A stretch of 64,000 nucleotides of DNA. It comes from Acidobacteriota bacterium (GTDB taxonomy: Bacteria > Acidobacteriota > UBA890 > WLXD01). The position numbers were made by a program, and so were the translations under genes. The stretch lies in contig CAXWPH010000015.1 in NCBI GenBank assembly GCA_963666055.2, positions 864,001 to 928,000 on the forward strand. Direction: 5' to 3'. Positions within the stretch are counted from its first letter, which is position 1, and each line of letters starts with the position of its first letter. Shown piece after piece: positions 20,097-47,130 of this stretch. Below the pieces are notes generated by a model, which saw nothing but the letters and a program-made list of their open reading frames with translations, was not told the DNA's origin and made no database searches.

Positions 20097-22093
20097 GTGA
20101 GAGCGGCGGGCGGGTCGTTTCTCTTGTTTGCGCTGGCGGCGGCCTGGGTGGTGACATCGGGCCACTCACTCGCCGAGCAGGAGGAGGTCGAGGTGCGTCA
20201 TCCGCTCGACCCACTCACGGAGCGCGAGTACACCACCGTCAAGCGCGGGCTGAGACGCAGCGAGCATGTCGGCCCGATGGCGCGCTATCCATTGGTCACT
20301 CTCCACGAGCCAGCGAAGGCGGACGTACTGCGCTGGCAATCCGGCGAGACCATCGACCGCAAGGCGTTCGTGATCGTCAAGCAACGCCGGCGGGTCGCCG
20401 AGGCCATCGTCGATGCGCTGAGCGGAGAGGTGGTCTCGTGGACAGAGGTCGAAGGGGTGCAGCCAGGCGTGCTCATGACCGAGGAGTGGGCGATCGCCGT
20501 GGCGCTAGTCCGGCGCAACCCCGACTGGCAGGCAGCGGTCCGGGCGCGAGGGATTACCGACCTGTGGCGGGTAGTGTGCACGCCGCTGACGGTTGGCTAC
20601 TTCGGTCGCGCCGAGCGTGCTCGAAACCGACTGGCAAAGGTAATCTGCTTCGACGCGCAGGGAACGAGCAACTACTGGGGACGGCCGATTGAAGGGCTAG
20701 TTGCCACGGTCGACCTGGTCAAGCGCACCGTCGAACTGGTTGATACGGGGCCGTCCCGACGCCGCAATCGCCCGTAGACTTCGCCGGCGAGTTCGTCGGC
20801 GAGCTCCGAACGCCACCGAATCCGTTCGAGGCAACGCAGCCTCCGGGGCCGAGCTTCGAGCTCGATGGGCAGAGTGTGAGCTGGGAGAGGTGGCGTTTCC
20901 ACTTCCGCATCGATCCACGCCTGGGTCCGGTAATCTCGCTGGTGCGATACCAGGACGGCGGCAAGCTGCGGTCGATTCTGTATCAGGGCTCGCTATCGGA
21001 GCTGTTCGTTCCGTACATGGCGCCGGATGAGGGCTGGTACTTCAGAACCTACATGGACGCCGGCGAGTACGGCGTCGGCAAGCTGGCATCGCCCCTGCAA
21101 CCGAATCTGGACTGTCCGCCCGGGGCGGTCTTCTTCAATGCGGTGTTTGCCGACGACTGGGGTGACCCGTACACGACGCCACGAGCCGCTTGTCTGTTCG
21201 AGCGCAACGCCGGCGACATCGCCTGGCGGCACTACGAGTCGCTCACCGGGCGCACCGAGGTGCGCAGACGCACCGACCTGGTCTTGCGCTTTATCCCCGC
21301 GGTCGGCAACTACGACTACGTTCTCGACTGGGTGTTCCGACAGGACGGAACCCTGCAGGTGGACCTGGGGGCGACGGGGATCGCCCAGGTCAAGGCGGTG
21401 GCGAGCCGCACCATCGCCGACGACGGAGAGGGTCCAGACACCGACTACGGGCGCATGGTCGCCGCGCGCACGGTGGCGATCAACCACGACCATTTCTTCT
21501 CCTTCCGGCTCGATCTGGATGTAGACGGTACGCACAACAGCTTTCAGGTGGACCGCCTGCGTACCCAACGGCTCGAGGGTGACAGCCCACGCAAGAGCCT
21601 CTGGGTGGTGGAGCCGTCGATCGCCGCATCCGAGCAGGCCGCCAGGATGCGAATCGATCTCGAACAACCGGCACTGTGGCGGGTTATCAACCCCAACGTC
21701 CAGGGCCCAGTGGGCTACCCGGTGAGCTACGAGCTGAAGCCGCAGGCGAACGCCGTGTCGCTGCTGAAGCCGAACGATCCTCCGCAACAACGCGCCGGCT
21801 TCACCGACTTCCACCTATGGGTAACCCCTCACGACCCCGACGAGCGCTACGCGGCGGGGCTCTACCCGAACCAGAGTCCGGGTGGCCACGGGCTTCCCGA
21901 GTGGACCAGTGAGGATCGGTCGATCCTCAACACCGATCTGGTGCTCTGGTACACCCTCGGGGTGCATCATGTGGTGCGCGCCGAAGATTGGCCGGTGTTG
22001 CCGACCACGCGGAGTGGCTTCGAGCTGCGACCCTTCGACTTCTTCCCCAGGAATCCGGCTCTCGACATTTCCGAACAGGCCGAACAGGACTGA
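20097..22093 (+). CDS. tynA: Copper/TPQ primary amine oxidase, exported; frameshift at GGGG 20747-20750
   Basis: HPLDPLT, YMDAGEYG, VGNYDY (TPQ site), HDH and HH..EDWP Cu ligands; adding one G joins the two ORFs. Confidence 0.9.
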
Positions 22094-26096: not shown

Positions 26097-26146
26097 GATC
26101 TCCGTTGAAACAGGGAGCCTGAAGATGCTACCGACTACTCGCTTCA
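26097..26146 (+). repeat. 50-bp direct repeat copy 1 (RBS + first codons of the cupin-like gene)
   Basis: 49/50 identical to 32114-32163. Confidence 0.9.
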
Positions 26147-26322
26147 CCTAGCAGGCCGTGGTGGAAGTGTGGCGGGCCTGGCGACAGGGTCTTGCGAGGT
26201 GGAGGCAAGGAGAGAGGAGGAGGCGATGGTTACCCCATCGTTGACGAGGAACGACGCAGCATACGCGCGCAACCCCCTATCGCCCGGAGGGTTACGCCAC
26301 ACTTTCACCACGGCCTGCTAGG
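26147..26322 (+). mobile_element. MITE-like element, short form (176 bp)
   Basis: TIR cctagcaggccgtggtg(g/a)aagtgtgg...ccacactttcaccacggcctgctagg; internal hairpins; no transposase. Confidence 0.8.
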
Positions 26323-26536: not shown

Positions 26537-28096
26537 TCACTCCTTCTTCTGTTCTTCTTCCTTCTCTTCCTCTGCCTTTGTCGCGTCCAGGTGCTGTTGC
26601 TGGTCGCCATAGTGGTCGTCTATGGCGTGCTCGGATGACAACGGGCTCAGGTAATGCTTCTCAGTCAGCTCTTCCTTGTTCATCGCGAGTCCCGTCAGGC
26701 ACGCTTTGATGATATGCACGCTGTTGAGCGTAGTCCTGTAGGTCGGATCCAGTGCAGGATGCAATTCGACCAGGTCGAAACCCACCACATTGGACTCCGC
26801 ACACAGGCGGCGCACGATGGTAATCGCTTCGCGCATGGTGAGCCCGCCTGGAACCGGTGTGCCGGTAGCCACTGCGAATGCGGGATCGAGAACATCAATG
26901 TCAAAAGAGATGTGCAGCTTGCGCCCCTCTTCACTGGCCTCGGCGACAACCCGGTCAAGCACGGCATCCCAGCCCCGCCGCTCAATCTCGGCCATGGTGT
27001 GATAACGCATGCCCTGTTCCCGCATCCAATTGAAACCCGACTTGTCGGGTCCGCTCGAGCGCAGCCCGACCTGGATGTAATCCGCAGCCCGCACATGGCC
27101 TTCATTAATCAGGCGGTACACCGGGTATCCATGATTGATCAGGTGGGCGCTTTCGCCCCACCACGCATCGTAATGCGAGTCGAAGTGAATAACCGATACC
27201 TTTTCCTTGCCATAAACGTCCGCCAAGGCCGCAACATTGGGGTATTCCAATGAGTGGTCGCCGCCGACAATCATGGGTACGGCTCCCGTCTCCGCGATCT
27301 CGCGCACGATCTCGCGTACGTGGCGCATGGACCGTTCGGTGCTGTCGTTGTCTACCGCAACGTCGCCGTAGTCCACGACGGTCAGTACCTCAGATGCATT
27401 AATTTGCACATACTGGTCCTCTCCGCCCATGGCCCGGCCGCGCAGGCGAAGGTCGACGGTGGCGCGCTCACCCGAGTCGCGCCATCCCGAGCCCATGTTC
27501 AGGGGCGCGCCCAGGATGGCGACATCAACCTCACCCGCGACGAGGTCTTCCTTCGACAGCGCCAGGGGGAAACCGCCAAATGTTGGCGGACCGCGCCTGC
27601 CGCGATAGCGACCGAGCGCGACCGGTCCCGCCTCCCGCTCTGGATCCATGGATCGGGGACGCAGTAATCGCCATGCATTGAAATCGGGCGATTCGGTATT
27701 GAAGGGAATGTTGGGCAAGTCTCGTCCTTCGGTGTAGCGGCTTTGTTCCACTACCTGTTGCATGGCCTCGACCCACGCCTTTACTTCCTCCGGTGTGCGT
27801 TTCTCGAGCGCTTCAACGGCTTTTTCGGCTGGCCCGGTAAAGGCACGCGCATCGGCGCTCTTCAGAAACTCGATTTGCTCCGGCGTCAGCAATTCGAGCT
27901 TTGCCGCCACGCTGTCGGGCAGTTCAATAGGCGGCTGTTCCTCCTCCCGTGCGTCGACGGTGTCAAACGGATACGCCCGCGCACCGACGACGTGCTCCTG
28001 GGTGCCAGGCCTTTCATCCTGGGCCCAGGCGACCGGTGCAGCCGCCGTCACAAGCAAGAGCAGTGCGGCACGAATGCTGATCGAACCGAATGTCAT
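26537..28096 (-). CDS. Exported ureohydrolase (agmatinase family), intact metal site
   Basis: GGDHS, FDSHYD, FDIDVLDP, TGTPVPGG, DLVE; signal peptide; RBS ggag. Confidence 0.9.
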   Translation of the reverse strand: MTFGSISIRAALLLLVTAAAPVAWAQDERPGTQEHVVGARAYPFDTVDAREEEQPPIELPDSVAAKLELLTPEQIEFLKSADARAFTGPAEKAVEALEKRTPEEVKAWVEAMQQVVEQSRYTEGRDLPNIPFNTESPDFNAWRLLRPRSMDPEREAGPVALGRYRGRRGPPTFGGFPLALSKEDLVAGEVDVAILGAPLNMGSGWRDSGERATVDLRLRGRAMGGEDQYVQINASEVLTVVDYGDVAVDNDSTERSMRHVREIVREIAETGAVPMIVGGDHSLEYPNVAALADVYGKEKVSVIHFDSHYDAWWGESAHLINHGYPVYRLINEGHVRAADYIQVGLRSSGPDKSGFNWMREQGMRYHTMAEIERRGWDAVLDRVVAEASEEGRKLHISFDIDVLDPAFAVATGTPVPGGLTMREAITIVRRLCAESNVVGFDLVELHPALDPTYRTTLNSVHIIKACLTGLAMNKEELTEKHYLSPLSSEHAIDDHYGDQQQHLDATKAEEEKEEEQKKE

Positions 28097-28130
28097 AGCA
28101 ATGCTCCAATACGTGTGGGCCGGGCGCATA

Positions 28131-29522
28131 CTATCGCTGGCCATGATCGAGCGCCAAGGGATGAACGTAGTCCGGGTCGAGGCCCGCCTTGCGCACCGCG
28201 ATGCCAACCAGGCAGGCATTCAGCGCAGCATTCGCATGCATTATCGACAGTCGAGAGGAATCCAGCATCGGGGCCATGTCCGTGATTTCAAAACCGACGA
28301 TCTCTTTCGCCGCGCACACATGGCGGACTGCCTGGGTCACTTCCTCAAGACCCAAGCCATTGTGCGTTGCACGCCCAGCCGCAACCATCTCGGCAGGGTT
28401 AACGACGCTGACATCGATCGAGACGAAATAGGCGTCGGGGCCTCTGGCGACTTCCTGCAGTACCCGTTGCATAACTCTCTCGGATCCGCGTTGCCGGAAT
28501 TCAGCCATCGTGTGGTAGCGGACACCCTGGTCACGCAGCCATTGCAGTGTGTCCGCATCTACCGCGGGTCCGCGTAAGCCAACCTGGACGGTTTCGCTGC
28601 CTTCCACGATGCCCTCGTCCAACAGCAGGAAAAGCGCCTGACGGTCAGAAATCGTATGGTCACCGTTGCGCTCGGCATCTGGGTGGGCGCTGAAGTGCAG
28701 CAATCCAAAGCTCCCATTTCCGTGTACCCGGGCGACGCCACTGACGGCAGGATAGAGCAAGGACGTATCACCGCCGACCAGCATCGGGATGGCGCCGGTG
28801 CGCGCGGTTTCGGCAACCATGGCGGCAACGTGGTTGACGGTTCTTTCTGTGCTCATCTGGTCGACAGCAAAATCACCGTAGTCGACCACGGAGAGTGTTT
28901 CGAACGGCTTCACCAGGGATTGCACGTCTGGCATGGCAATGGTGTTCAGGCCACGCATTTCGCTCGGGCCGTTTTTAGCGTCGCGCCGGCCGCTGCTCGC
29001 ATTCCCTGGCACGCCGACGATCGCCACGTCCACATTGCCTGCGACGAGATCTTCCGGCCAGATGGCGACATCGGCGCCACCAAACGTAGGTACACCGGTT
29101 TTCGGAAACAGGTAACGGTGCACGCTGAACGGGCCCGGCTCACGTTCGAAATCGCGCAACAATGCCGGTGTAGGCATGGCCCCACCGAAACTCTTGGTAG
29201 TGAGGTTGAGGGGTGCCGCGCCCATGTCTCGCTCCGGGTCATAACCCATTTTGTCGGCGAGCGACATCAGGTCGTCCAGCAGAGATCGCAGGCTGTTTGC
29301 ATCACGCGTGGCGAGTTCGTGTTCGAGCTGCCGCTCCGGAATATATTTGAGTATCGCGCCTGATGTAATGAACTCGATCTGTTCATCATTCAGCACGCTC
29401 GCTTGCGCCTGCAGCTCGCCCGGTATGGACCGTTGCCCAAGCGCGGTTTCAACGGAGAGCAGCAGCAATGCCGAACAAATTGTGAGCAGAGCACGATGCG
29501 TCAACAATCGTCGAGAGATCAT
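28131..29522 (-). CDS. Exported ureohydrolase paralog with degenerate metal ligands
   Basis: Same fold but GGDTS, FSAHPD, IDVSVVNP, EITD; signal peptide. Confidence 0.85.
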   Translation of the reverse strand: MISRRLLTHRALLTICSALLLLSVETALGQRSIPGELQAQASVLNDEQIEFITSGAILKYIPERQLEHELATRDANSLRSLLDDLMSLADKMGYDPERDMGAAPLNLTTKSFGGAMPTPALLRDFEREPGPFSVHRYLFPKTGVPTFGGADVAIWPEDLVAGNVDVAIVGVPGNASSGRRDAKNGPSEMRGLNTIAMPDVQSLVKPFETLSVVDYGDFAVDQMSTERTVNHVAAMVAETARTGAIPMLVGGDTSLLYPAVSGVARVHGNGSFGLLHFSAHPDAERNGDHTISDRQALFLLLDEGIVEGSETVQVGLRGPAVDADTLQWLRDQGVRYHTMAEFRQRGSERVMQRVLQEVARGPDAYFVSIDVSVVNPAEMVAAGRATHNGLGLEEVTQAVRHVCAAKEIVGFEITDMAPMLDSSRLSIMHANAALNACLVGIAVRKAGLDPDYVHPLALDHGQR

Positions 29523-32577: not shown

Positions 32578-32856
32578 CCTAGCAGGCCGTGGTGAAAGTG
32601 TGGTGGGTCTGGTTACGGCGAGTTGGGGCCAGATGGAAGGCGGCCTGACACAGGCGATGCCCTAGCCATCGTCCAGGAAGGCAACGCCGCAAATGGCCCC
32701 AAATCGCCGTAATCCTTCGGGCGAAAGGGGGTTGCGCGCGTATCCTGCGTCGTTCCTCGTCAACGATGGGTAACCATCGCCTCCTCCTCTCTCCTTGCCT
32801 CCACTTCGCAACACCCTGTCGCCAGACCCACCACACTTTCACCACGGCCTGCTAGG
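32578..32856 (-). mobile_element. MITE-like element, long form (279 bp), inverted relative to the 26147 copy
   Basis: Perfect TIR cctagcaggccgtggtgaaagtgtgg; contains the whole short form plus a ~100-bp extra module. Confidence 0.82.
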
Positions 32857-32947
32857 TGACTGGAGGCAGCTTCTATAAGAACATGTGGTTGCTCGCGCCA
32901 TGGGGCCACCGTGAACGCTCCTCCTGCTGCCAGCGTTAGCTAGAGAA

Positions 32948-34251: not shown

Positions 34252-34337
34252 TTTTATTAGTGCCTCTCGAATTCTTCGATCACTGCGTCAGCGGCGCTGT
34301 CTCACTGCCCCCACCTTGACGCTCGAGGAGACATGAA

Positions 34338-36323
34338 ATGAAGAAGAGCGATCGTGAGCTGGGCATGAACCGGGAGATCACCCGTCGCGACCTCCTGAGC
34401 GGAACGAGCATCGCGATCGCGGGAGCGGCCCTTGCGCCGGGGGAAGTGGGGGCGCAGGGACGCGATGCCCGGCTGGCTCCGGCCGCATCTCCAGTTGTCG
34501 ATCAATCTGCGATCCAGGAGACGTACTATCCGCCAACCCGTACGGGGATGCGGGGCAGCCATCCGGGGTCGTTCGAGGTGGCTCATCGCATGCGGTTCGG
34601 CGAGACGTGGGACGACCCGCAGGAAACAGGGGAAGAGTACGACCTGATCGTGGTGGGTGGCGGGTTGAGCGGTCTCGGGGCGGCCTACTACTTCCGCAAG
34701 GCGATGCCTGAGGCTCGGGTCCTGATTCTGGAGAACCACGACGACTTCGGAGGGCACGCGAAGCGGAACGAGGCCATGGTCGACGGGCGCCAGGTCATCG
34801 GCTGGGGAGGCACGACGTACATCACCGGAGCCTATACGTACGAAGGCCTGGAGTTGCTGCACGACATCGGCCTGGATGCGGAGGTGTACAGGCGTGCGAA
34901 CGTGGGACGAAGCTTACGGGCGCGAGAGCCGGATTTGGGAAGCGCGGTCTTGTTCGACGAGGAGACGTTCGGTGAGGATCGCCTGGTGGTAGGAGAACCC
35001 GGATCGGACGAGCCGGAGGCCTGGACGAAATGGCTTCGAAAGACGCCGCTCTCGGACCGGGTGCAGAAGGACATCGCGAAGCTGTACCAGACGCAGGAGG
35101 ATTACTTCCCCGGATTGTCGGTGGAGGAGAAGATCGCTCGGCTCCGCAAGATGAGCTATCAGGACTATCTGCTGAACGTCGTCGGCGTCGACCCGGACGT
35201 GATCCCCTTCTTCATGCGCCGCGGCCCGGATGCCAATGGCACGGCCGGTATCGATACGTTGAGCGGATGGGCTGCGTTCCGGTACAGCGGTTTACCCGGG
35301 CTGCAGGGCCTCGGGCTCGGGGAGCCGCCGCCGAGAGACGGATTCCCCGGGCTGGAGAATCCGTTCGATGGCATGCACTTCCCCGACGGAAATGCTGGCA
35401 TCGCCCGCCTGCTCGTGCGCTGGCTGATTCCGGGTTCGCTACCGGGCGAGACGATGAACGATTCGGTGCCGACGCGGGTCCGGTATTCGACCCTCGACCG
35501 GACGGAAAACGACGTGCGTATCCGTCTCAACAGCACGGTGGTGAACGCCCACCACGTGGGCGATCGGGCGAAGGCGAACGCGGTGGATGTCACGTACGTA
35601 CGGGACGGCCAGGCGCATCGCGTGCGCGCAGGCACCTGCGTGATGGCGTGCTACAACTCGGTGATCCCGTATCTGTGTCCCGAGCTGCCGGAGGACCAGA
35701 AAGAACACCTGCATATGGCGGTGCGCAGACCCTTCGTTGCGGCCAACGTCATGGTTCGCGACTGGCGAGCGTTCGAGCGGCTCGGTGTGGCGCGCATCCA
35801 TTGCCCGGGCGCGTACTTCGAAAGTGTCAGTCTTGACGGTTACAGCAACAGCTTCGGGGAATACCAGACCGCCCAGTTGCCCGACGAACCGGTCGTCGTA
35901 GGGCTCTGGGCATCTCCGATCGCTCCGGGGCTCCCCGTACGGGACCAGTGGCGGGCCGCACGGGAGGAGCTTCTGGCCATGTCGTTCGAAACGTTCGAGC
36001 GTGGCATCAGGGATCAGCTTGCTCGTGCCCTGGGGGAGGGAGGCTTCGATCCCGCCCGGGACATCGAGGCCATCTTCGTCAACCGCTGGCCCCACGGGTA
36101 CGCGGGCGCAGGCAATGACCTCTTCGACCCCGACTGGGGGTACGACGAGGCTCCCTGGGTATTGGGCCGTAAGCGGTTCGGGCGGATCGCCATCGCCAAC
36201 TCCGACGCGGCCGCGTCTTGTCTTACACAGGCGGCGTTCGACCAGGCACATCGAGCGGTCCAAGAGCTGATCATCGACGTCATTCGACCCGAATTCCAGT
36301 ATCCGTGGGCGGAGAGGACCTAG
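34338..36323 (+). CDS. Spermidine dehydrogenase (SpdH)-like FAD oxidoreductase, Tat-exported
   Basis: ITRRDLL, YYPPTRTGMRGSH, VVGGGLSG, GGHAKRNE, HFPDGNA, NRWPHGY, IANSDA. Confidence 0.88.
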   Translation: MKKSDRELGMNREITRRDLLSGTSIAIAGAALAPGEVGAQGRDARLAPAASPVVDQSAIQETYYPPTRTGMRGSHPGSFEVAHRMRFGETWDDPQETGEEYDLIVVGGGLSGLGAAYYFRKAMPEARVLILENHDDFGGHAKRNEAMVDGRQVIGWGGTTYITGAYTYEGLELLHDIGLDAEVYRRANVGRSLRAREPDLGSAVLFDEETFGEDRLVVGEPGSDEPEAWTKWLRKTPLSDRVQKDIAKLYQTQEDYFPGLSVEEKIARLRKMSYQDYLLNVVGVDPDVIPFFMRRGPDANGTAGIDTLSGWAAFRYSGLPGLQGLGLGEPPPRDGFPGLENPFDGMHFPDGNAGIARLLVRWLIPGSLPGETMNDSVPTRVRYSTLDRTENDVRIRLNSTVVNAHHVGDRAKANAVDVTYVRDGQAHRVRAGTCVMACYNSVIPYLCPELPEDQKEHLHMAVRRPFVAANVMVRDWRAFERLGVARIHCPGAYFESVSLDGYSNSFGEYQTAQLPDEPVVVGLWASPIAPGLPVRDQWRAAREELLAMSFETFERGIRDQLARALGEGGFDPARDIEAIFVNRWPHGYAGAGNDLFDPDWGYDEAPWVLGRKRFGRIAIANSDAAASCLTQAAFDQAHRAVQELIIDVIRPEFQYPWAERT

Positions 36324-41228: not shown

Positions 41229-41380
41229 TACATGGTCCAGAACTGCACGTTACGCAGCATCTCGGCATCACCACCATGCGGGGTGCGGCCTCAGCGCTCG
41301 GCCTGGACATAGTGGCGACGCTGTGCTTGCATCGAGCGCTATCTACAAGGGCGTGTTTGCCAACATCGGATAGGTGTGTC

Positions 41381-43456
41381 ATGAACAAGAAGAAGCGTGA
41401 TCGCGCACTCGGCATGGATGCAGAAATCTCACGGCGGGATTTCCTGGACGGCGTGGCCGTGACCGTCGGGGGGACGATGGTGGTCTCCACTCTGGCAGGC
41501 GGCACCCCCGTACAGGCGCAGACGGCATCCCCGCCACCGCCGATGTCCGCTCCGCAAGCCGCACCTTCGGATTACCCACCCATGATCCAAGGGCTCCGCG
41601 GGCAAACTGACGCGGCCATGAATGCGGGGCATGCCGTCCGCGACGGGACAGCGTTCAGCGCCCCGGTCGATACCGGCGAGTTCTACGACCTGGTTGTCGT
41701 GGGTGCCGGCATGGCCGGACTTGGCGCCGCCTATTTCTATCGGAAGCAGATCCCGCATTCGAAGGTCTTGCTGATCGATGGGTGCGAAGATTTCGGGGGC
41801 CACGCCGTGCGCAACGAATTCATGGTGGACGGCACGCGCCTGATTGCGGGCGGCGGCACCGCCGCCCTCTGGCGTCCGAATACGTTTACGCCCGAGGCGC
41901 AGGAGCTGATGCGCGATATCGGGATCGACCGCGCGCACCATGATAGAGAAGTGGCCAACAACCCGAACGCGCCGCGAGAGTTGGGTCTCCGGCGAGCGGT
42001 GTTCTTCGACAAGGAGTCCTCTGGTGAGGACCGGCTCGTTATGGACCCACCGCCCGAATTGGGCCTCCGGGGCCGCAGGGGCGAGGAAGGGACGACGAGT
42101 GCTCAGTTCGCCGAATTCTTTGCCCAGACGCCGTATTCAGCCGGCACCCGAGAGGGCTTGTTGAAGCTGTTCACCGAGCACCGTGATTGGATGCCCGGGG
42201 TCCCGACCGCGGAGAAAGTCGAGCAACTCAAGAAGATGAGCTACATCGACTTTGTGAGCAACGTCGTCAAGATCCATCCCGACGCGGTAGCCCATGTCCT
42301 CTCGGTGGGCGGCACGGGCGGGACCAACCAGACCGCCGGTCCGGACACCTATAGCGCCTGGTATGCCTGGCGGAAGGGCGCACCCGGCTTCAACGCGATG
42401 GCTCTCCCGCCCGCCTCGCAGTTGTCCAACCTGGTCAAAGACCCGGGGCGGAACATCGCCTGGCCCGACGACGCGACCACCGCGGCGCGGCTCTTGGTCC
42501 GGTGGCTGATACCGGACGCCTTGCCAGGCCGCACGGCGGATGATTCGGTCTTGCAGCATATCGATTACGCCGCCTTGGACCGTCCGACGAGCGATGTGCG
42601 CATCCGCCTTTCAAGCATGGTCATCCGCGCCAAGCACCTGGGCGACCCGCTGACCGCGAAGGAAGTCGAGGTGACCTATCTGCGTGACGGCCAACCCCAC
42701 ACCGTCCGTGCGCGCGGCGTCGTGATGGCCTGCTTCAACGCCATCATTCCCTACCTGGTGCCGGACCTGCCGGAGTCCCAGAAGGCTGCGCTACATATGG
42801 CGGTGCGGAAGCCGCTCGTCGCGACCAATGTGGCCATCCGTAACTGGCGTGCGTTCCAGAAGCTGGGCGTCTCTTCGATCAACTGCCCAGGCATGTTCTG
42901 GGCGTCGATCGGGCTCGCCGTCCCAGCGGCCATCGGCGGGTATCAGAACGCGTCCACGCCGGACGAGCCGATTGTCGTCCGGATGTCCCTCACCGCTCGC
43001 ATCCTGGAGAAGGCGGGCTCCGGGCTCTCGCCGCGCGAACAATGGAAGGCCAGCCGTACCGAGCTGCAGGAGATCACCTTCGAAACATTCGAGCGCAACA
43101 TCCGCGAACAGCTCGATCGCGTCCTGGGACCTGGCGGCTTTGACGCAAAGCGTGATGTCGCGGGTATCATCATCAACCGCTGGAGTCATGCCTACGCCCC
43201 CGGGTCGAATGAGCTGTACGATCCCGACTGGTCACACCGGATGGATGCTCCATGGGTGGTCGGGCGTCAGCAATTCGGTCGGATTACGATCTCGAACTCG
43301 GATGCCGCGTGGGTTTCGCTCACGAACGCGGCGTGGCAGCAAAGCCACCGCGCCGTGAACGAGCTCATCTGCAACGTGGTTCGGCCGGTGTTCGATTGGC
43401 AGTGGTCCGAAAGTATGCACGCCGGCGAACCCGGCGACTATCCGAACAACTTCTAG
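41381..43456 (+). CDS. Second SpdH-like FAD oxidoreductase, Tat-exported
   Basis: ISRRDFL, VVGAGMAG, GGHAVRNE, NRWSHAY, ISNSDA; paralog of 34338. Confidence 0.88.
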   Translation: MNKKKRDRALGMDAEISRRDFLDGVAVTVGGTMVVSTLAGGTPVQAQTASPPPPMSAPQAAPSDYPPMIQGLRGQTDAAMNAGHAVRDGTAFSAPVDTGEFYDLVVVGAGMAGLGAAYFYRKQIPHSKVLLIDGCEDFGGHAVRNEFMVDGTRLIAGGGTAALWRPNTFTPEAQELMRDIGIDRAHHDREVANNPNAPRELGLRRAVFFDKESSGEDRLVMDPPPELGLRGRRGEEGTTSAQFAEFFAQTPYSAGTREGLLKLFTEHRDWMPGVPTAEKVEQLKKMSYIDFVSNVVKIHPDAVAHVLSVGGTGGTNQTAGPDTYSAWYAWRKGAPGFNAMALPPASQLSNLVKDPGRNIAWPDDATTAARLLVRWLIPDALPGRTADDSVLQHIDYAALDRPTSDVRIRLSSMVIRAKHLGDPLTAKEVEVTYLRDGQPHTVRARGVVMACFNAIIPYLVPDLPESQKAALHMAVRKPLVATNVAIRNWRAFQKLGVSSINCPGMFWASIGLAVPAAIGGYQNASTPDEPIVVRMSLTARILEKAGSGLSPREQWKASRTELQEITFETFERNIREQLDRVLGPGGFDAKRDVAGIIINRWSHAYAPGSNELYDPDWSHRMDAPWVVGRQQFGRITISNSDAAWVSLTNAAWQQSHRAVNELICNVVRPVFDWQWSESMHAGEPGDYPNNF

Positions 43457-43469
43457 GGCTCACGGCGAG

Positions 43470-43580
43470 CTTGAGGTCATCGGCCAGGTAGGCCGTTGCC
43501 ATGCCGCCCTCGCCCAGCTCACGCTCAATGGCGTAGCGGCCTTCGAGGGCTGCGTTGAGGCGGGTGACGGGATCGGACAT
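43470..43580 (-). pseudogene. N-terminal remnant of Ser/Thr protein kinase
   Basis: MSDPVTRLNAALEGRYAIERELGEGGMATAYLADDLK (Gly loop) then breaks; RBS ggag. Confidence 0.85.
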
Positions 43581-43791
43581 ATGCGCACTCCAGGATCAGA
43601 CTGCGCTCAACATCCGAGAGCGGGCCGGTAGGCGCAAGCAGAAGCCCGTCAGACGCTGAGAAGCTCGCCTGTTACGAGTTGCTCGTGCCTTTCTAGGCCG
43701 TCCTCAAAATTTGGTGCGTACGCCTGAGCAGGAGTCACACGCGTATATACAGGCCCCTCTTGGGGGGAACCCGCCTTTCGAGGAGAGCGGG

Positions 43792-44988
43792 TCATAATCT
43801 ACCCAAGCCAAATTGGTCACCTGCCTTGGTTACTTTGCCGTCTTGCATATGTATCTCAATCATCTTTTCGCTGCAAACGGTGTTGTAATTTTCATCTTTC
43901 AACAAGTACAAAATTCTCCGTGTCTTGGTATGAATCACTTCGCCACTAGATGCATAGGCATACTGACCATCTATACTAAAAGTGACCCAACCCGGCATAT
44001 CACGTAGTGCAATGGTGGTGAGCTGTTGATAAGGGGCTTCTCCGCTAAAGACATGCATTCGCATATTATGGCCATCGCTAATCCATATCTCTTTTTCATC
44101 TGGGGTCAAAGCTATACCGTGACTTGGATTTTCATGTCGTTGTACGGGACCTTTGTCCCAACCCTGGACCTGAACACTCGCTACCTTTTCTCCTGTTTTC
44201 AAATCACCCACTTCAAATCCCAGTAAATCATCAACGTTCACAAACACAAGCGACTCGTCGCTCTTGATGGTAAACGGTCGCACAGGCCCACTAAAAAGGC
44301 CTATTTTCTGTACGACTGTGTGCGTTTTGGTATCTGCAACGTACAACCAGGGAGATTTATAATCCGCCATATATGCTCGATTTCCTGAAGGACCGTAAAT
44401 CGTGTTGTGTGCACTGGTATCTACTACGATCTTGGCAATGACATCACCGGTTTCGGTATTCACGACATTCCAAAACTCTTTTTCTAAGGATGGCAAATAC
44501 ATGGTCATCCCATCAGGTGAAATTGACATACGGTCACAGCCGCCCTCAAAAGCGATGTCCCACAGCACCTCTTCCGTACTCAGATCTATTCGCTGCATAC
44601 CTTCCAAGGTGGTGATATAGACACTGTTGAGCGGCACACTGACATCAATGCCCTTGACATTTGACGGGCTGCCATCTTCATGGAACCCCCTAGTGCTAAT
44701 TCGTTTTACAAAGTTGTGATTGTTGTCTATATCAAAAACCAGCAATCCGTGACCCCCATAGCCCAAATAATCTCTGATACCAGGAGTCGCTACATACAGG
44801 TAGTGGCCGGTACCCCCTGTTGCCACAGGTTCATCTATGGGTGGAGGACTTGGTATCATCGAAGCGGTGCTAGCGGCCGCGGCTCCCGGCGCGAGGACCG
44901 TTCCCGCGATCGCGATGCTCGCCCCGTTCAGCAAGTCGCGACGGTTGATCTCCCGGTCCATGCCCAGCTCGCGGTCGCTCTTCTTCAT
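43792..44988 (-). CDS. YncE/YVTN-like beta-propeller with SpdH-type Tat leader (chimeric)
   Basis: LYVATPGIR..GGHGLLVFD, GCDRM, PSHGIALTPDE; AT-rich body, GC-rich leader. Confidence 0.82.
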   Translation of the reverse strand: MKKSDRELGMDREINRRDLLNGASIAIAGTVLAPGAAAASTASMIPSPPPIDEPVATGGTGHYLYVATPGIRDYLGYGGHGLLVFDIDNNHNFVKRISTRGFHEDGSPSNVKGIDVSVPLNSVYITTLEGMQRIDLSTEEVLWDIAFEGGCDRMSISPDGMTMYLPSLEKEFWNVVNTETGDVIAKIVVDTSAHNTIYGPSGNRAYMADYKSPWLYVADTKTHTVVQKIGLFSGPVRPFTIKSDESLVFVNVDDLLGFEVGDLKTGEKVASVQVQGWDKGPVQRHENPSHGIALTPDEKEIWISDGHNMRMHVFSGEAPYQQLTTIALRDMPGWVTFSIDGQYAYASSGEVIHTKTRRILYLLKDENYNTVCSEKMIEIHMQDGKVTKAGDQFGLGRL

Positions 44989-45162
44989 TCTCAGGTCTCC
45001 TCGAGGATCGAAGTGTAGGCCCCGGAATCCAGTTCCATTTCTTCAAGCTCTGATGATAGATGGCACGCGTCCTAAGCACCATCACCCAAACAATGTTCAC
45101 TGATCACTAAATCCAACCCCCAAAACACTCGCGTGCCAGAGCCAACAGCGGCGGTCCAACGC

Positions 45163-45381
45163 TCACCGCGGTCTCCTCATTCGCCGCACCTTGCCACGCT
45201 TGATGCCGAGCGACGGCACTGTTCGCTGCACCTGCTCCGACCTCCATCGTGCGACCAAGTGCTTGTAGTTCTCCTCGATCATCTTGGTATCGGAATGACC
45301 GAGCTGTTCGGCCAAGTCCGTCGGCGATCCGCGGTTCATGAGGTAGGCGCTCGCATAGTGGCTTCGGAACTGATGGACCAG
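45163..45381 (-). pseudogene. Tyrosine integrase C-terminal remnant
   Basis: HQFRSHYASAYL..LAEQLGHSDTKMIEENYKHL (HxxR, LGH, catalytic Y); not in ORF track. Confidence 0.75.
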
Positions 45382-45465
45382 GCCTTCCTGCTGATCTGGT
45401 TATTTTTTTCCGCGGCCATCATCGCCCACGGCGCCTGGGGCCTGCTCAAGGACTAGTCGAGCGCG

Positions 45466-47130
45466 TCACCGAACCGTTACCGCCTCGCTTGGCGCGTAGC
45501 CCAGACGATGTGCCACGGCGTGCAGCTGGTGCCCGGCCGGCAGCGTTACCGGTTCCGTGTAGACGTGCCACTGCGTCCCCGGCATGCCGCCCTCGGCCAC
45601 CACCTGGTATCCGATGGAGGCGCCTTCAGTAGCGGAGTGGATCGTGATCTCATTGCCGTCGCGTTGGATTCTCGGAGCCATCGTCGGGGGCTGTTGTCGG
45701 CCCGGCCAGAACTGCTCCAGCAAGTCGGCTTCGGGGATGAGGCCCTTGTCGTCGGTGGCTTCCATCCAGCGGTCGAGCTCGGCCCGGAGGTCGGCGAGCT
45801 TGGGGGCGTAGGTCGGGTCAGCGGCAAGGTTACGGAGCTCGTGAGGGTCGGCGGCAGTATCGAACAGCTCTTCGCGCGGCTTGGACGGGCGGAACCACTG
45901 CGCCTGGTATTCATCGAGGCCGCCGGCATCGCGCAGTCGTAGCAGCTCCTGCATCGTCGCCATCTGCTCGCGGTAGGTCACCGCCAGGTAGTAGCCGCGC
46001 TCGGGCTGGAAGTTACGCAAGTACTTGAACTGGCTGTCGCGCACGGCGCGGATCGTGTCGTATTCGGTGTCGAGGCGATCGGCGGCGGCGTGGACGTAGC
46101 GGCGGGGCTCGGCGGCGCGCGCGGCACCGAGGAACGCTCTGCCCTCGACGTAGCCGGGCACCTCGATGCCGGCCAGGGAGAACGTGGTCGGGGCGAAGTC
46201 GACGAAGCTGACCAGCTGATCGTCGACAGCGCCGCCGTACTGGGCATCGGGAAAGCGGATGATCATCGGAACATGTAGGCCCGAGTCGTAGAGCAGGCGC
46301 TTCTGACGCGGCAATGGGCCACCATGGTCGGCGTACCAGACCACGATGGTGCGCTCGAGCAAACCGTCGGATTCCAGCTCGGCGAGGATCTGCCCGACCT
46401 GTTCGTCCATCTCGACGACGTTCGAGTACATCCGCAGCACATCACCGCGGACAGCGTCGGTGCGGGGCAGGTAGGGCGGGATGGGCACGTCCAGGTCGGC
46501 GTCCACCCGTAACGGATCGTCAGCCTTGGCCCAGATCTGCGACTCGTGCGTGACGCCGAAGTTGAAAACCGAGAAGAACGGAGCTCCCGACGGGCGATCG
46601 CGCCAGTGGGCCTCGCCGCTGCTCGCGTCCCAGGCGGTCACCGGCGCGGTGAGCTGGTAATCGTGCTTGGCGTTGTTGGAGGTGTAGTAGCCGTTGCGCC
46701 GCAGCACCTCGCTCATCATCCGGACCTGCGGAGGCGGCACGGTCTCATAGGGGAGGAGGCCGATGGCGTCCATGTACGCCTGCCGCGAGCTCGTACGCAT
46801 GTTGTGGGCGCCAGCGCTGGTGGTGTAGACGCCCGTCGCCAGTGAAAACCGGCTAGGTGCGCAGACACCAGAGACCGAGAACACATTCCTGTAACGCACC
46901 CCTTCGCGTGCCAGCCGATCCAGGTGGGGCGTCTTCACGGTGGAATCGCCGAAGGCGGCAAGGTAGGGGCTCATGTCCTCGGCCACGAGCCATAAGAAGT
47001 TGGGGCGGGACGCCTGGTCGAGGCTTGGATAGCCCACCGGCGGGTCGGACAGCGGGGGCTCTGACCGCTGCGTGTCACACCCGGCGCCGACGAGCAGCAG
47101 GGTCAGGATGACGGCGGCGAGGTTCTTCAT
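45466..47130 (-). CDS. Sulfatase (lipoprotein)
   Basis: PNFLWLVAED, CAPSR, DHG, KRLLYDSG; lipobox GAGC. Confidence 0.92.
   Translation of the reverse strand: MKNLAAVILTLLLVGAGCDTQRSEPPLSDPPVGYPSLDQASRPNFLWLVAEDMSPYLAAFGDSTVKTPHLDRLAREGVRYRNVFSVSGVCAPSRFSLATGVYTTSAGAHNMRTSSRQAYMDAIGLLPYETVPPPQVRMMSEVLRRNGYYTSNNAKHDYQLTAPVTAWDASSGEAHWRDRPSGAPFFSVFNFGVTHESQIWAKADDPLRVDADLDVPIPPYLPRTDAVRGDVLRMYSNVVEMDEQVGQILAELESDGLLERTIVVWYADHGGPLPRQKRLLYDSGLHVPMIIRFPDAQYGGAVDDQLVSFVDFAPTTFSLAGIEVPGYVEGRAFLGAARAAEPRRYVHAAADRLDTEYDTIRAVRDSQFKYLRNFQPERGYYLAVTYREQMATMQELLRLRDAGGLDEYQAQWFRPSKPREELFDTAADPHELRNLAADPTYAPKLADLRAELDRWMEATDDKGLIPEADLLEQFWPGRQQPPTMAPRIQRDGNEITIHSATEGASIGYQVVAEGGMPGTQWHVYTEPVTLPAGHQLHAVAHRLGYAPSEAVTVR

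What the first reader, a model, noticed from the sequence alone, without database searches (positions are those of the whole stretch)
43792..45005. Native-style RBS and Tat leader grafted in frame onto a foreign AT-rich gene
Seen: the first 35 codons match the SpdH-like gene at 34338 (92/105 nt, 29/35 aa by hand count) with a shared upstream ctcgaggagac; composition then switches abruptly near 44870 to an AT-rich beta-propeller. Inference: a horizontally acquired gene gained expression and export by leader capture, echoing the duplicated leader at 26097 and the kinase shell.
Basis: partly seen in the sequence, partly recalled or inferred. Interest (0 to 1): 0.7.

Follow-up and report, generated by a model that had tools for sequence, protein, structure and literature searches.

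The report
Imported propeller on borrowed Tat leader
A beta-propeller gene that came from Bacteroidota has had its own start and signal peptide replaced, at the cleavage site, by the ribosome-binding site and twin-arginine signal of a resident acidobacterial flavoprotein family, which likely lets the new host translate it and would reroute its export; it is an unusually clean natural record of how a transferred gene gets fitted to a new host.

Summary
In detail: 92/105 nt and 29/35 aa match the SpdH-like gene at 34338, and GC3 falls from about 0.9 to 0.45. The graft is real: the same chimera is in 4 of 5 genomes of the host genus and in an Acidobacteriota genome outside the order. The body is a seven-bladed propeller nested among Bacteroidota homologs. 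An ungrafted sister matches at 93% starting exactly at 44874; one SpdH relative (P0182) shares 39/39 signal residues with a hybrid and nothing after. The join therefore falls at the predicted cleavage site. Corrections: donors already had a Sec-type signal, so export was swapped, not gained; the clearer gain is a Shine-Dalgarno site (6/6 distinct hybrids, 1/61 Bacteroidota); 34338 is a cousin, not the parent; the cassette moved after fusion; the 26097 repeat and the kinase stub carry no body. After fusion the propeller's rim changed fast (stem dN/dS 0.63 against 0.07) around an invariant core. A second body on the same leader exists (P0185, P0293). Known kind of process (terminal reassortment); export and expression are untested.

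The parts
43792..44988 (-). Chimeric ORF, 398 aa: SpdH-type signal peptide + Bacteroidota-derived beta-propeller
44989..45136 (-). About 150 bp upstream region that travels with the chimera (shared with G002, L123 and, to -126, G003; cut to -46 in L021 and -17 in G004); origin not found, no sigma-70-type promoter called
44995..45005 (-). Shine-Dalgarno-containing 11-nt motif shared with the 661-aa SpdH paralogs; GAGGAG at 45002-44997, 8 nt before the ATG
44872..44988 (-). Codons 1-39: complete SpdH-type signal peptide, twin arginine at codons 16-17 (44943-44938), predicted cleavage after Ala39
   Evidence: cleavage site inferred from the A-x-A rule (own knowledge)
44872..44874 (-). Junction codon 39: the match to the ungrafted sister begins at 44874; its first two bases (GC) are shared with the SpdH paralogs
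44809..44874 (-). Codons 39-60: tail of the donor's own signal peptide (A-S-T-A) and Pro-rich linker
43795..44808 (-). Residues 61-398: seven-bladed YVTN/lactonase-like propeller, GC 0.45, GC3 0.46; this copy lacks the last five codons of other hybrids because flanking DNA changes at about 43796
34322..36323 (+). SpdH-like flavoprotein gene (661 aa) with the same ribosome-binding motif and leader; a close paralog of the leader's parent
45163..45399 (-). C-terminal remnant of a tyrosine recombinase just upstream (context; below Pfam cut-off)
   Evidence: PF00589, E 3.5e-4, 20.9 bits against 27.1

Best explanation
This is a real chimeric gene in which the ribosome-binding site and 39-residue twin-arginine signal of a resident SpdH-like flavoprotein are joined in frame to a Bacteroidota-derived propeller, likely by one illegitimate recombination, which would give the imported gene host-style translation and switch its predicted export from Sec to Tat. 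Shown: the two parents, the junction codon, spread over several genomes, an intact frame under purifying selection. Inferred: the crossover used only a 2-base overlap, and it sits at the cleavage site because selection keeps joins that leave a whole signal and a whole mature protein; the host genus offers about 30 SpdH-type leaders per genome as raw material. After fusion the cassette moved between marine Acidobacteriota and the propeller's rim residues and charge were remodelled around an unchanged core, so it probably works as a periplasmic small-molecule hydrolase or binding protein of the lactonase/YVTN fold with an altered ligand.
For: Parents: hybrid P0001 and SpdH P0182 are 39/39 identical, then unrelated; ungrafted sisters L114/L151 match at 93%/90% nt from 44874 on; identity to SpdH paralogs 0.77-0.93 for codons 1-35 and 0.00-0.29 from codon 40, to the sister 0.23-0.40 then 0.89-1.00. 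Tree of 62 bodies: 9 hybrids one clade (100/100), sister to P0007/P0008 type (98/93), inside Bacteroidota rows. Distribution: 4 of 26 genomes of the order, all in the genus; G061 has the hybrid but no SpdH body with this query. Later movement: four-fold-site divergence 0.126 to L021 against 0.70 for its ClpB neighbour; 0.17-0.18 to G003/G004 against up to 0.52 for other genes; no shared neighbours, inverted IS copies on both sides in G004. SD motif in 7 of 7 hybrid rows (6 distinct; L022 repeats L004), 1 of 61 Bacteroidota; Bacteroidia ribosomes ignore SD (abstract starts of PMC13000453, PMC9976891). Twin arginine kept in 38 of 38 leader-bearing sequences; TatC present. dN/dS among hybrids 0.23 (0.16-0.31), stem 0.63 (0.33-1.68), donors 0.07. 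Fourteen polar/aromatic positions, among them K112, R153, H194, R237, H285, H290, invariant in 62 of 62, while R192S, R283Q, I210Y/W, N242K are fixed in 9 of 9 hybrids.
Against: No expression or export data; none of the 32 listed RNA pieces bridges the junction (542 more not shown). This copy's leader scores 16.3 and 15.8 bits on TIGR01409, just under the 16.7 cut-off (L021 22.0, L123 23.7 pass). pN/pS in the leader among hybrids is 1.38, so that test shows no purifying selection on it. The stem dN/dS interval includes values below 1 (16% of bootstraps above 1). The acid shift (-5..-7 to -14..-22) matches native host propellers (-11 to -25 per 335 aa), so it may be general adaptation to the host. 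DNA of the P0182 gene was not available, so the crossover is inferred from its protein and from cousin paralogs. Only 358 of 807 host long ORFs showed an SD motif in a crude count (internal-ATG control 306 of 2135), so an SD is common but not obligatory in this host. The function of the propeller family is not established by any hit (best identities 13-19%).
Confidence: 0.8

Rival explanations
1. The graft is real but its value is translation only: the Shine-Dalgarno site and 5' end rescued expression, and the twin-arginine signal came along; the protein may go by Sec, by both routes, or stay partly inside.
For: Donors export without a Tat signal, so the fold does not need Tat; SD contrast is strong; this copy falls just under the Tat model's cut-off; dual or switched routes after transfer are documented for BKC-1 and BlaC (PMC8262980, Discussion).
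Against: RR plus F/L-L/V kept in 38 of 38, even in the P0005 group whose leader has drifted elsewhere; the join keeps the whole signal to its cleavage site rather than a few codons.
Confidence: 0.3
2. The rim changes are relaxed selection and drift toward the host's acidic exported proteins, not a new ligand; the protein does the donor's job, or little.
For: Stem dN/dS not significantly above 1; native host propellers are equally acidic; crown dN/dS 0.23 is three times the donors'; 7 of the base changes at the 19 stem codons go toward GC and 4 toward AT.
Against: 11 of 19 stem changes fall in loops I assigned to the top face (30% of sites; p 0.011; against donor variation Fisher p 0.007); several are at positions nearly invariant in 53 other homologs and then fixed in 9 of 9 hybrids; 13 of 24 base changes are GC-neutral. 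The face assignment comes from the strand list of the model, not from coordinates.
Confidence: 0.4
3. A dedicated mechanism (mobile element or recombination hot spot) repeatedly mounts this leader on new genes.
For: The same leader subtype with its linker also heads a PD40/TolB-like body in P0185 and P0293, with a remnant in G002, and heads SpdH bodies of two kinds (P0182, P0183).
Against: In G000 only 1 non-SpdH body among 33 motif hits (confirmed by profile); the two chimeras break at different places (codon 39 against about 25 residues further on); no repeat or element at the junction; 20 odd-length leader frames in relatives were SpdH or fragments except that one remnant; among 150 best representatives 76 SpdH, 45 too short, 2 amidohydrolase-type, 1 propeller.
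Confidence: 0.06
4. Assembly chimera, or a native family that always had this leader.
For: The leader is a multi-copy repeat in the genome, which can mislead assemblers; some singleton leader fusions in the representative set look like such artefacts (P0313, P0341, P0406).
Against: The same join with independent substitutions in five genomes and a metagenome contig; bridging contigs in two studies; 114 of the 120 best homologs lack the leader; native host relatives are 25-33% identical with GC3 0.76-0.88.
Confidence: 0.01

Closest known systems
Terminal reassortment of secreted effectors (Stavrinides, Ma, Guttman 2006, seen only as cited and paraphrased in PMC5675462; passages read; the original was not held)
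   Same: A secretion signal is fused to an unrelated functional stretch, making a new exported protein in one step.
   Different: Described for type III/IV effectors of pathogens; here a general Tat leader of a metabolic flavoprotein, a cross-phylum body, an environmental host, and replacement of an existing Sec signal.
Signal peptide gain and loss by whole-segment insertion in Enterobacterales (PMC5952966; passages and section 19 read)
   Same: Whole N-terminal segments are gained or lost among homologs (34 gains of that type reported).
   Different: That study removed Tat-containing groups, did not name the source of gained signals and did not treat transfer; here both parents and the junction codon are identified.
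BKC-1 carbapenemase signal peptide (PMC8262980; abstract and Discussion read)
   Same: A laterally acquired periplasmic protein whose signal peptide was altered and which uses Tat in the new host.
   Different: BKC-1 duplicated part of its own signal; here the signal comes from an unrelated host gene, and export is untested.
Pseudomonas aeruginosa spermidine dehydrogenase SpdH (PDB 7d9j; role from passages of PMC9397018)
   Same: The leader's parent family is homologous over 590 residues.
   Different: The chimera has none of the catalytic domain; substrates of the host's about 30 paralogs are untested.
YVTN / 6-phosphogluconolactonase-like / YncE-like seven-bladed propellers (1l0q Z 32.9, rmsd 2.2, 290 aligned; 6nau Z 31.6, rmsd 2.5, 299 aligned; 3vgz Z 28.2, rmsd 2.4, 268 aligned)
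   Same: Fold; one YVTN repeat model passes its cut-off (TIGR02276, 28.8 against 27.85).
   Different: 13-19% identity; far below the YncE equivalog cut-off (20 against 400 bits); no function can be transferred.

Membership tests
Chimeric gene by leader capture (terminal reassortment type) | N-terminal signal and start region traceable to one parent gene family | tested here: met
   39/39 aa P0001 against P0182, 92/105 nt against 34338
Chimeric gene by leader capture (terminal reassortment type) | Body traceable to an unrelated parent that lacks this leader | tested here: met
   93% nt to L114 from 44874; 114 of 120 best homologs without leader; tree
Chimeric gene by leader capture (terminal reassortment type) | Sharp in-frame junction present in independent data | tested here: met
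Chimeric gene by leader capture (terminal reassortment type) | The fusion is expressed and exported through the captured signal | not testable with these tools
   only RNA contigs were available; none listed bridges the junction
Tat substrate | Twin-arginine motif, weakly hydrophobic h-region, A-x-A type end | tested here: met
   N-R-R-D-L-L; best 12-residue hydropathy 1.83 against 2.37-2.49 for three donor-type signals; motif rules from own knowledge
Tat substrate | Score above the curated TIGR01409 cut-off (16.7) | tested here: inconclusive
   this copy 16.3/15.8, L002 16.6, L021 22.0, L123 23.7
Tat substrate | Host encodes Tat machinery | tested here: met
   TatC over cut-off in G000; TatA/B not searched
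Tat substrate | tatC-dependent export | not testable with these tools
   needs an experiment
YncE (NF052280 equivalog) | Score above 400 bits | tested here: not met
   20.3 bits; the 'YncE' names on homologs are automatic fold-level labels
6-phosphogluconolactonase / cycloisomerase propellers | Seven-bladed fold | tested here: met
   Z 31.6, rmsd 2.5, 299 aligned to 6nau
6-phosphogluconolactonase / cycloisomerase propellers | Equivalent catalytic residues and activity | not tested
   invariant His/Arg/Asp residues exist but were not superposed on a solved active site; no lactonase Pfam hit
Dedicated gene-capture system (integron-like) | Many different bodies joined at one fixed site, with a recombinase or site sequence | tested here: not met
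   two body families with different breakpoints; one non-SpdH body in G000

The most novel reading that the evidence does not exclude
The roughly 30-copy SpdH family of this acidobacterial genus acts as a recurring donor of ready-made 'translate and export' heads (seen on two unrelated propeller-type bodies), and for this Bacteroidota propeller the swap from Sec to Tat was followed by positive selection that turned a basic pocket rim acidic, giving a new periplasmic protein for cationic substrates such as the polyamines its leader's family degrades, which then spread as a cassette across Acidobacteriota.
Probability: 0.15. Interest if true: 0.75.

Novelty: new variant of a known kind. Interest (0 to 1): 0.5.

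Why it matters
Bacteroidota genes mostly lack Shine-Dalgarno sites, so how they become useful after crossing phyla is a real question. Here both parents, a 93%-identical ungrafted sister, the junction codon and the later substitutions are all in hand. That makes a direct test possible: sister against hybrid start for expression, Sec against Tat for export, and old against new rim for ligand. Natural Sec-to-Tat exchange by leader capture was not found in my literature searches, though those were narrow phrase searches of an open-access library.

Tried and rejected
Viral contigs: no relative found (6 pattern matches, none confirmed). Promoter scan 43600-45500: 0 sigma-70-type sites, 1.7 expected; 2 terminator-like sites, 1.2 expected. 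tRNA scan of five hybrid loci: one tRNA-Val about 5.7 kb away in L101, none adjacent. RNA runs X15-X17, X20: scattered pieces of relatives, no bridge listed; shares under 0.1, so no evidence on expression or habitat. Gene neighbourhoods of 15 donor-side loci: no shared neighbour seen by reading ORF starts, no family scan run. Host of the ungrafted sister: not identified; the upstream oxidoreductase of L151 has only unnamed close hits and named ones at 61% or less, none Bacteroidota. G001 (92% complete, 240 contigs) has no match with this query; absence not shown. Atlas search gave only automatic 'YncE family' clusters. PDB sequence search with the family profile: three weak propeller hits. P0377, first sorted as a hybrid by my pattern, is not one. 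P0313, P0341, P0406 (leader on inner pieces of cytoplasmic proteins) were set aside as probable assembly chimeras, untested. Literature searches with no or no relevant hit; no paper tying SpdH to Tat was found. Supplements were not read. No complex prediction was run.

Full report
Observation. The ORF 44988..43792 (-) encodes 398 aa. Its first 35 codons match the gene at 34338 in 92/105 nt and 29/35 aa, and GC3 drops from 0.8-1.0 (codons 1-40) to about 0.45. The shared upstream motif is at 45005-44995. The gene at 34338 is a homolog of P. aeruginosa SpdH (E 6e-135). The genome (5.73 Mb, about 64% GC) has 33 matches to the leader pattern; 28 head SpdH bodies, 4 are fragments or frameshifted copies and 1 is this gene; a profile search gave 37 leader hits on SpdH-body frames and no further strong hit on another body. 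One genome of the same genus is titled Acidobacteriota (L022, identical in place to G003), from which I take the host's phylum.

Is the fusion real? Of the 120 best homologs, 6 carry the leader. The chimera is in G000, G002, G003 and G004, 4 of the 5 genomes of the genus and 4 of 26 of the order, in L021 (genome G061, not among the 26) and in metagenome contig L123. Each has its own substitutions on both sides of the same join. Contigs bridge the join in X1 (44793-44962, no difference; possibly the source sample) and X11 (44558-44938, 24 differences; another study); the X9 piece has too little on one side to count. An assembly artefact is excluded.

The two parents. Named homologs of the body are mostly Bacteroidota, with some Verrucomicrobiota. 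In a tree of 62 bodies (45 of the 74 full loci and 17 proteins, chosen by hand) the 9 hybrids form one clade (100/100) on a stem of 0.11, sister (98/93) to four leaderless proteins of the P0007/P0008 type, inside Bacteroidota rows; the branches joining this pair to particular Bacteroidota are weak and the root is a midpoint, so the exact donor is open. DNA of the sister (L114, L151) matches at 93% and 90%, beginning exactly at 44874. Codon by codon, identity to ten 661-aa SpdH paralogs is 0.77-0.93 up to codon 35, 0.43 at 36-38 and 0.00-0.29 from 40; identity to the sister is 0.23-0.40 up to 38 and 0.89-1.00 from 39. The gap at 36-38 is closed by P0182, an SpdH protein whose first 39 residues are identical to hybrid P0001 and which continues as SpdH. 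So the whole signal, ending A-S-G-A, was taken up to its predicted cleavage site (A-x-A rule, own knowledge), and the donor takes over in the tail of its own signal (A-S-T-A-W). Only two bases are shared at the join, judged from cousin paralogs. The gene at 34338 is a cousin (30/39).

What was gained. Donor homologs begin with short, strongly hydrophobic signals without twin arginine and three tested give no Tat model hit; among 124 leaderless sequences one had RR, in an over-long start call. Export was thus exchanged, not gained. All 38 leader-bearing propeller sequences keep N-R-R-D-(F/L)-(L/V), TatC is present, and TIGR01409 scores are 15.8-23.7 around a cut-off of 16.7. An SD motif precedes 7 of 7 hybrid rows (6 distinct) but 1 of 61 Bacteroidota, 1 of 8 Verrucomicrobiota and 2 of 69 unassigned starts, by my start rule, in line with Bacteroidia ribosomes ignoring SD (abstract starts of PMC13000453, PMC9976891, PMC8710568). 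The host's 16S ends in the usual anti-SD. Against: leader pN/pS among hybrids is 1.38, and no listed RNA contig spans the join.

After the fusion. Pairwise dN/dS among six hybrids is 0.15-0.44. Least-squares branch fits give 0.23 for hybrid branches, 0.63 (0.33-1.68) for the stem and 0.07 for donor branches. A strict count finds 19 amino-acid and 4 silent stem changes. Eleven of the 19 lie in loops I assigned to the top face from the model's strand list (30% of sites; p 0.011; model pLDDT 79.7). Fourteen of the 30 positions I picked are invariant in all 62 rows, while R192S, R283Q, I210Y/W, N242K, G235P/A, H190D/A and S372C mark all 9 hybrids. Net charge moves from -5..-7 to -14..-22, but native host propellers are as acidic, so a changed ligand is suggested, not shown. 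The fold is closest to YVTN and lactonase-type propellers at 13-19% identity; it fails the YncE cut-off.

Mobility. The chimera has different neighbours in each genome, with inverted IS copies on both sides in G004 and a recombinase remnant upstream here. About 150 bp upstream travel with it, trimmed in some copies. Its silent divergence is far below that of ClpB beside it in L021 (0.126 against 0.70; ClpB may be a paralog) and at the low end for G003/G004 (0.17-0.18 against about 0.11-0.53 for other genes read in their true frames); G061 (2.4 Mb, probably incomplete) has no SpdH body with this query. I infer transfer of the finished cassette.

Other bodies. The same leader subtype with the SpdH linker heads a PD40/TolB-like N-terminus in P0185 and P0293, both partial, and a short remnant in G002; native relatives of that body have ordinary signals. 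Its break lies about 25 residues later. This makes two captures, not a system.

Comparison and verdict. It works like terminal reassortment (PMC5675462 passages) and belongs with whole-segment signal changes (PMC5952966, which excluded Tat groups) and host adaptation of signals as in BKC-1 (PMC8262980). It differs in being a Sec-to-Tat exchange on a cross-phylum gene with both parents known. An earlier AI note of this scan (e1-7899380) seems to describe the same family; it is not independent support, and my data qualify its 'one-off' wording. Verdict: real, well-resolved new variant of a known kind; interest 0.5.

Noticed in passing
window 26148-26322 and 32708-32859: A repeat of about 150-175 bp (up to about 280 bp elsewhere) with terminal inverted repeats, present in dozens of copies across the genome; looks like a MITE.
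   Followed up: no
G000-G004, e.g. window 34338-36323 and 41276-43456: About 23-37 SpdH-type leaders per genome in this genus, against 0-4 hits of any kind in other relatives: a large flavoprotein expansion; not found in one literature search.
   Followed up: partly
P0185, P0293, L206 (G002:C8:497205-497285): Second chimera: the same SpdH-type leader and linker on a PD40/TolB-like N-terminus of a native family of about 1100-1200-residue proteins.
   Followed up: partly
L114:126-204, L151:1330-1408, P0008/P0181: The ungrafted sisters have N-termini unlike Bacteroidota ones upstream of the last part of the h-region, and L151 lies in 59% GC DNA: the same imported gene may have had its start replaced separately in another non-Bacteroidota host.
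   Followed up: partly
window 43368-43580 (-): Single-copy stub resembling the start of a Ser/Thr kinase (label recalled, no Pfam hit); 43500-43657 draws summed contig depth above 10,000 in three metagenome runs, so it belongs to a very abundant family in other organisms.
   Followed up: partly
P0183: An SpdH body of another subgroup under a nearly identical leader, suggesting leader exchange among SpdH paralogs.
   Followed up: no
G000:C6:224442-226472, C11:32322-33926, C12:436589-438415: Other long low-GC ORFs (44-51% GC), candidates for recent imports; N-termini not examined.
   Followed up: no
window 26537-29522 and 20876-22093: Two adjacent agmatinase/arginase-like ORFs and an amine-oxidase-like ORF near the SpdH genes (labels recalled from the translations), suggesting an amine/polyamine catabolism region.
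   Followed up: no
G000:C14:129035-129665: A second tatC appears split over two frames, and two further tatC fragments exist.
   Followed up: no
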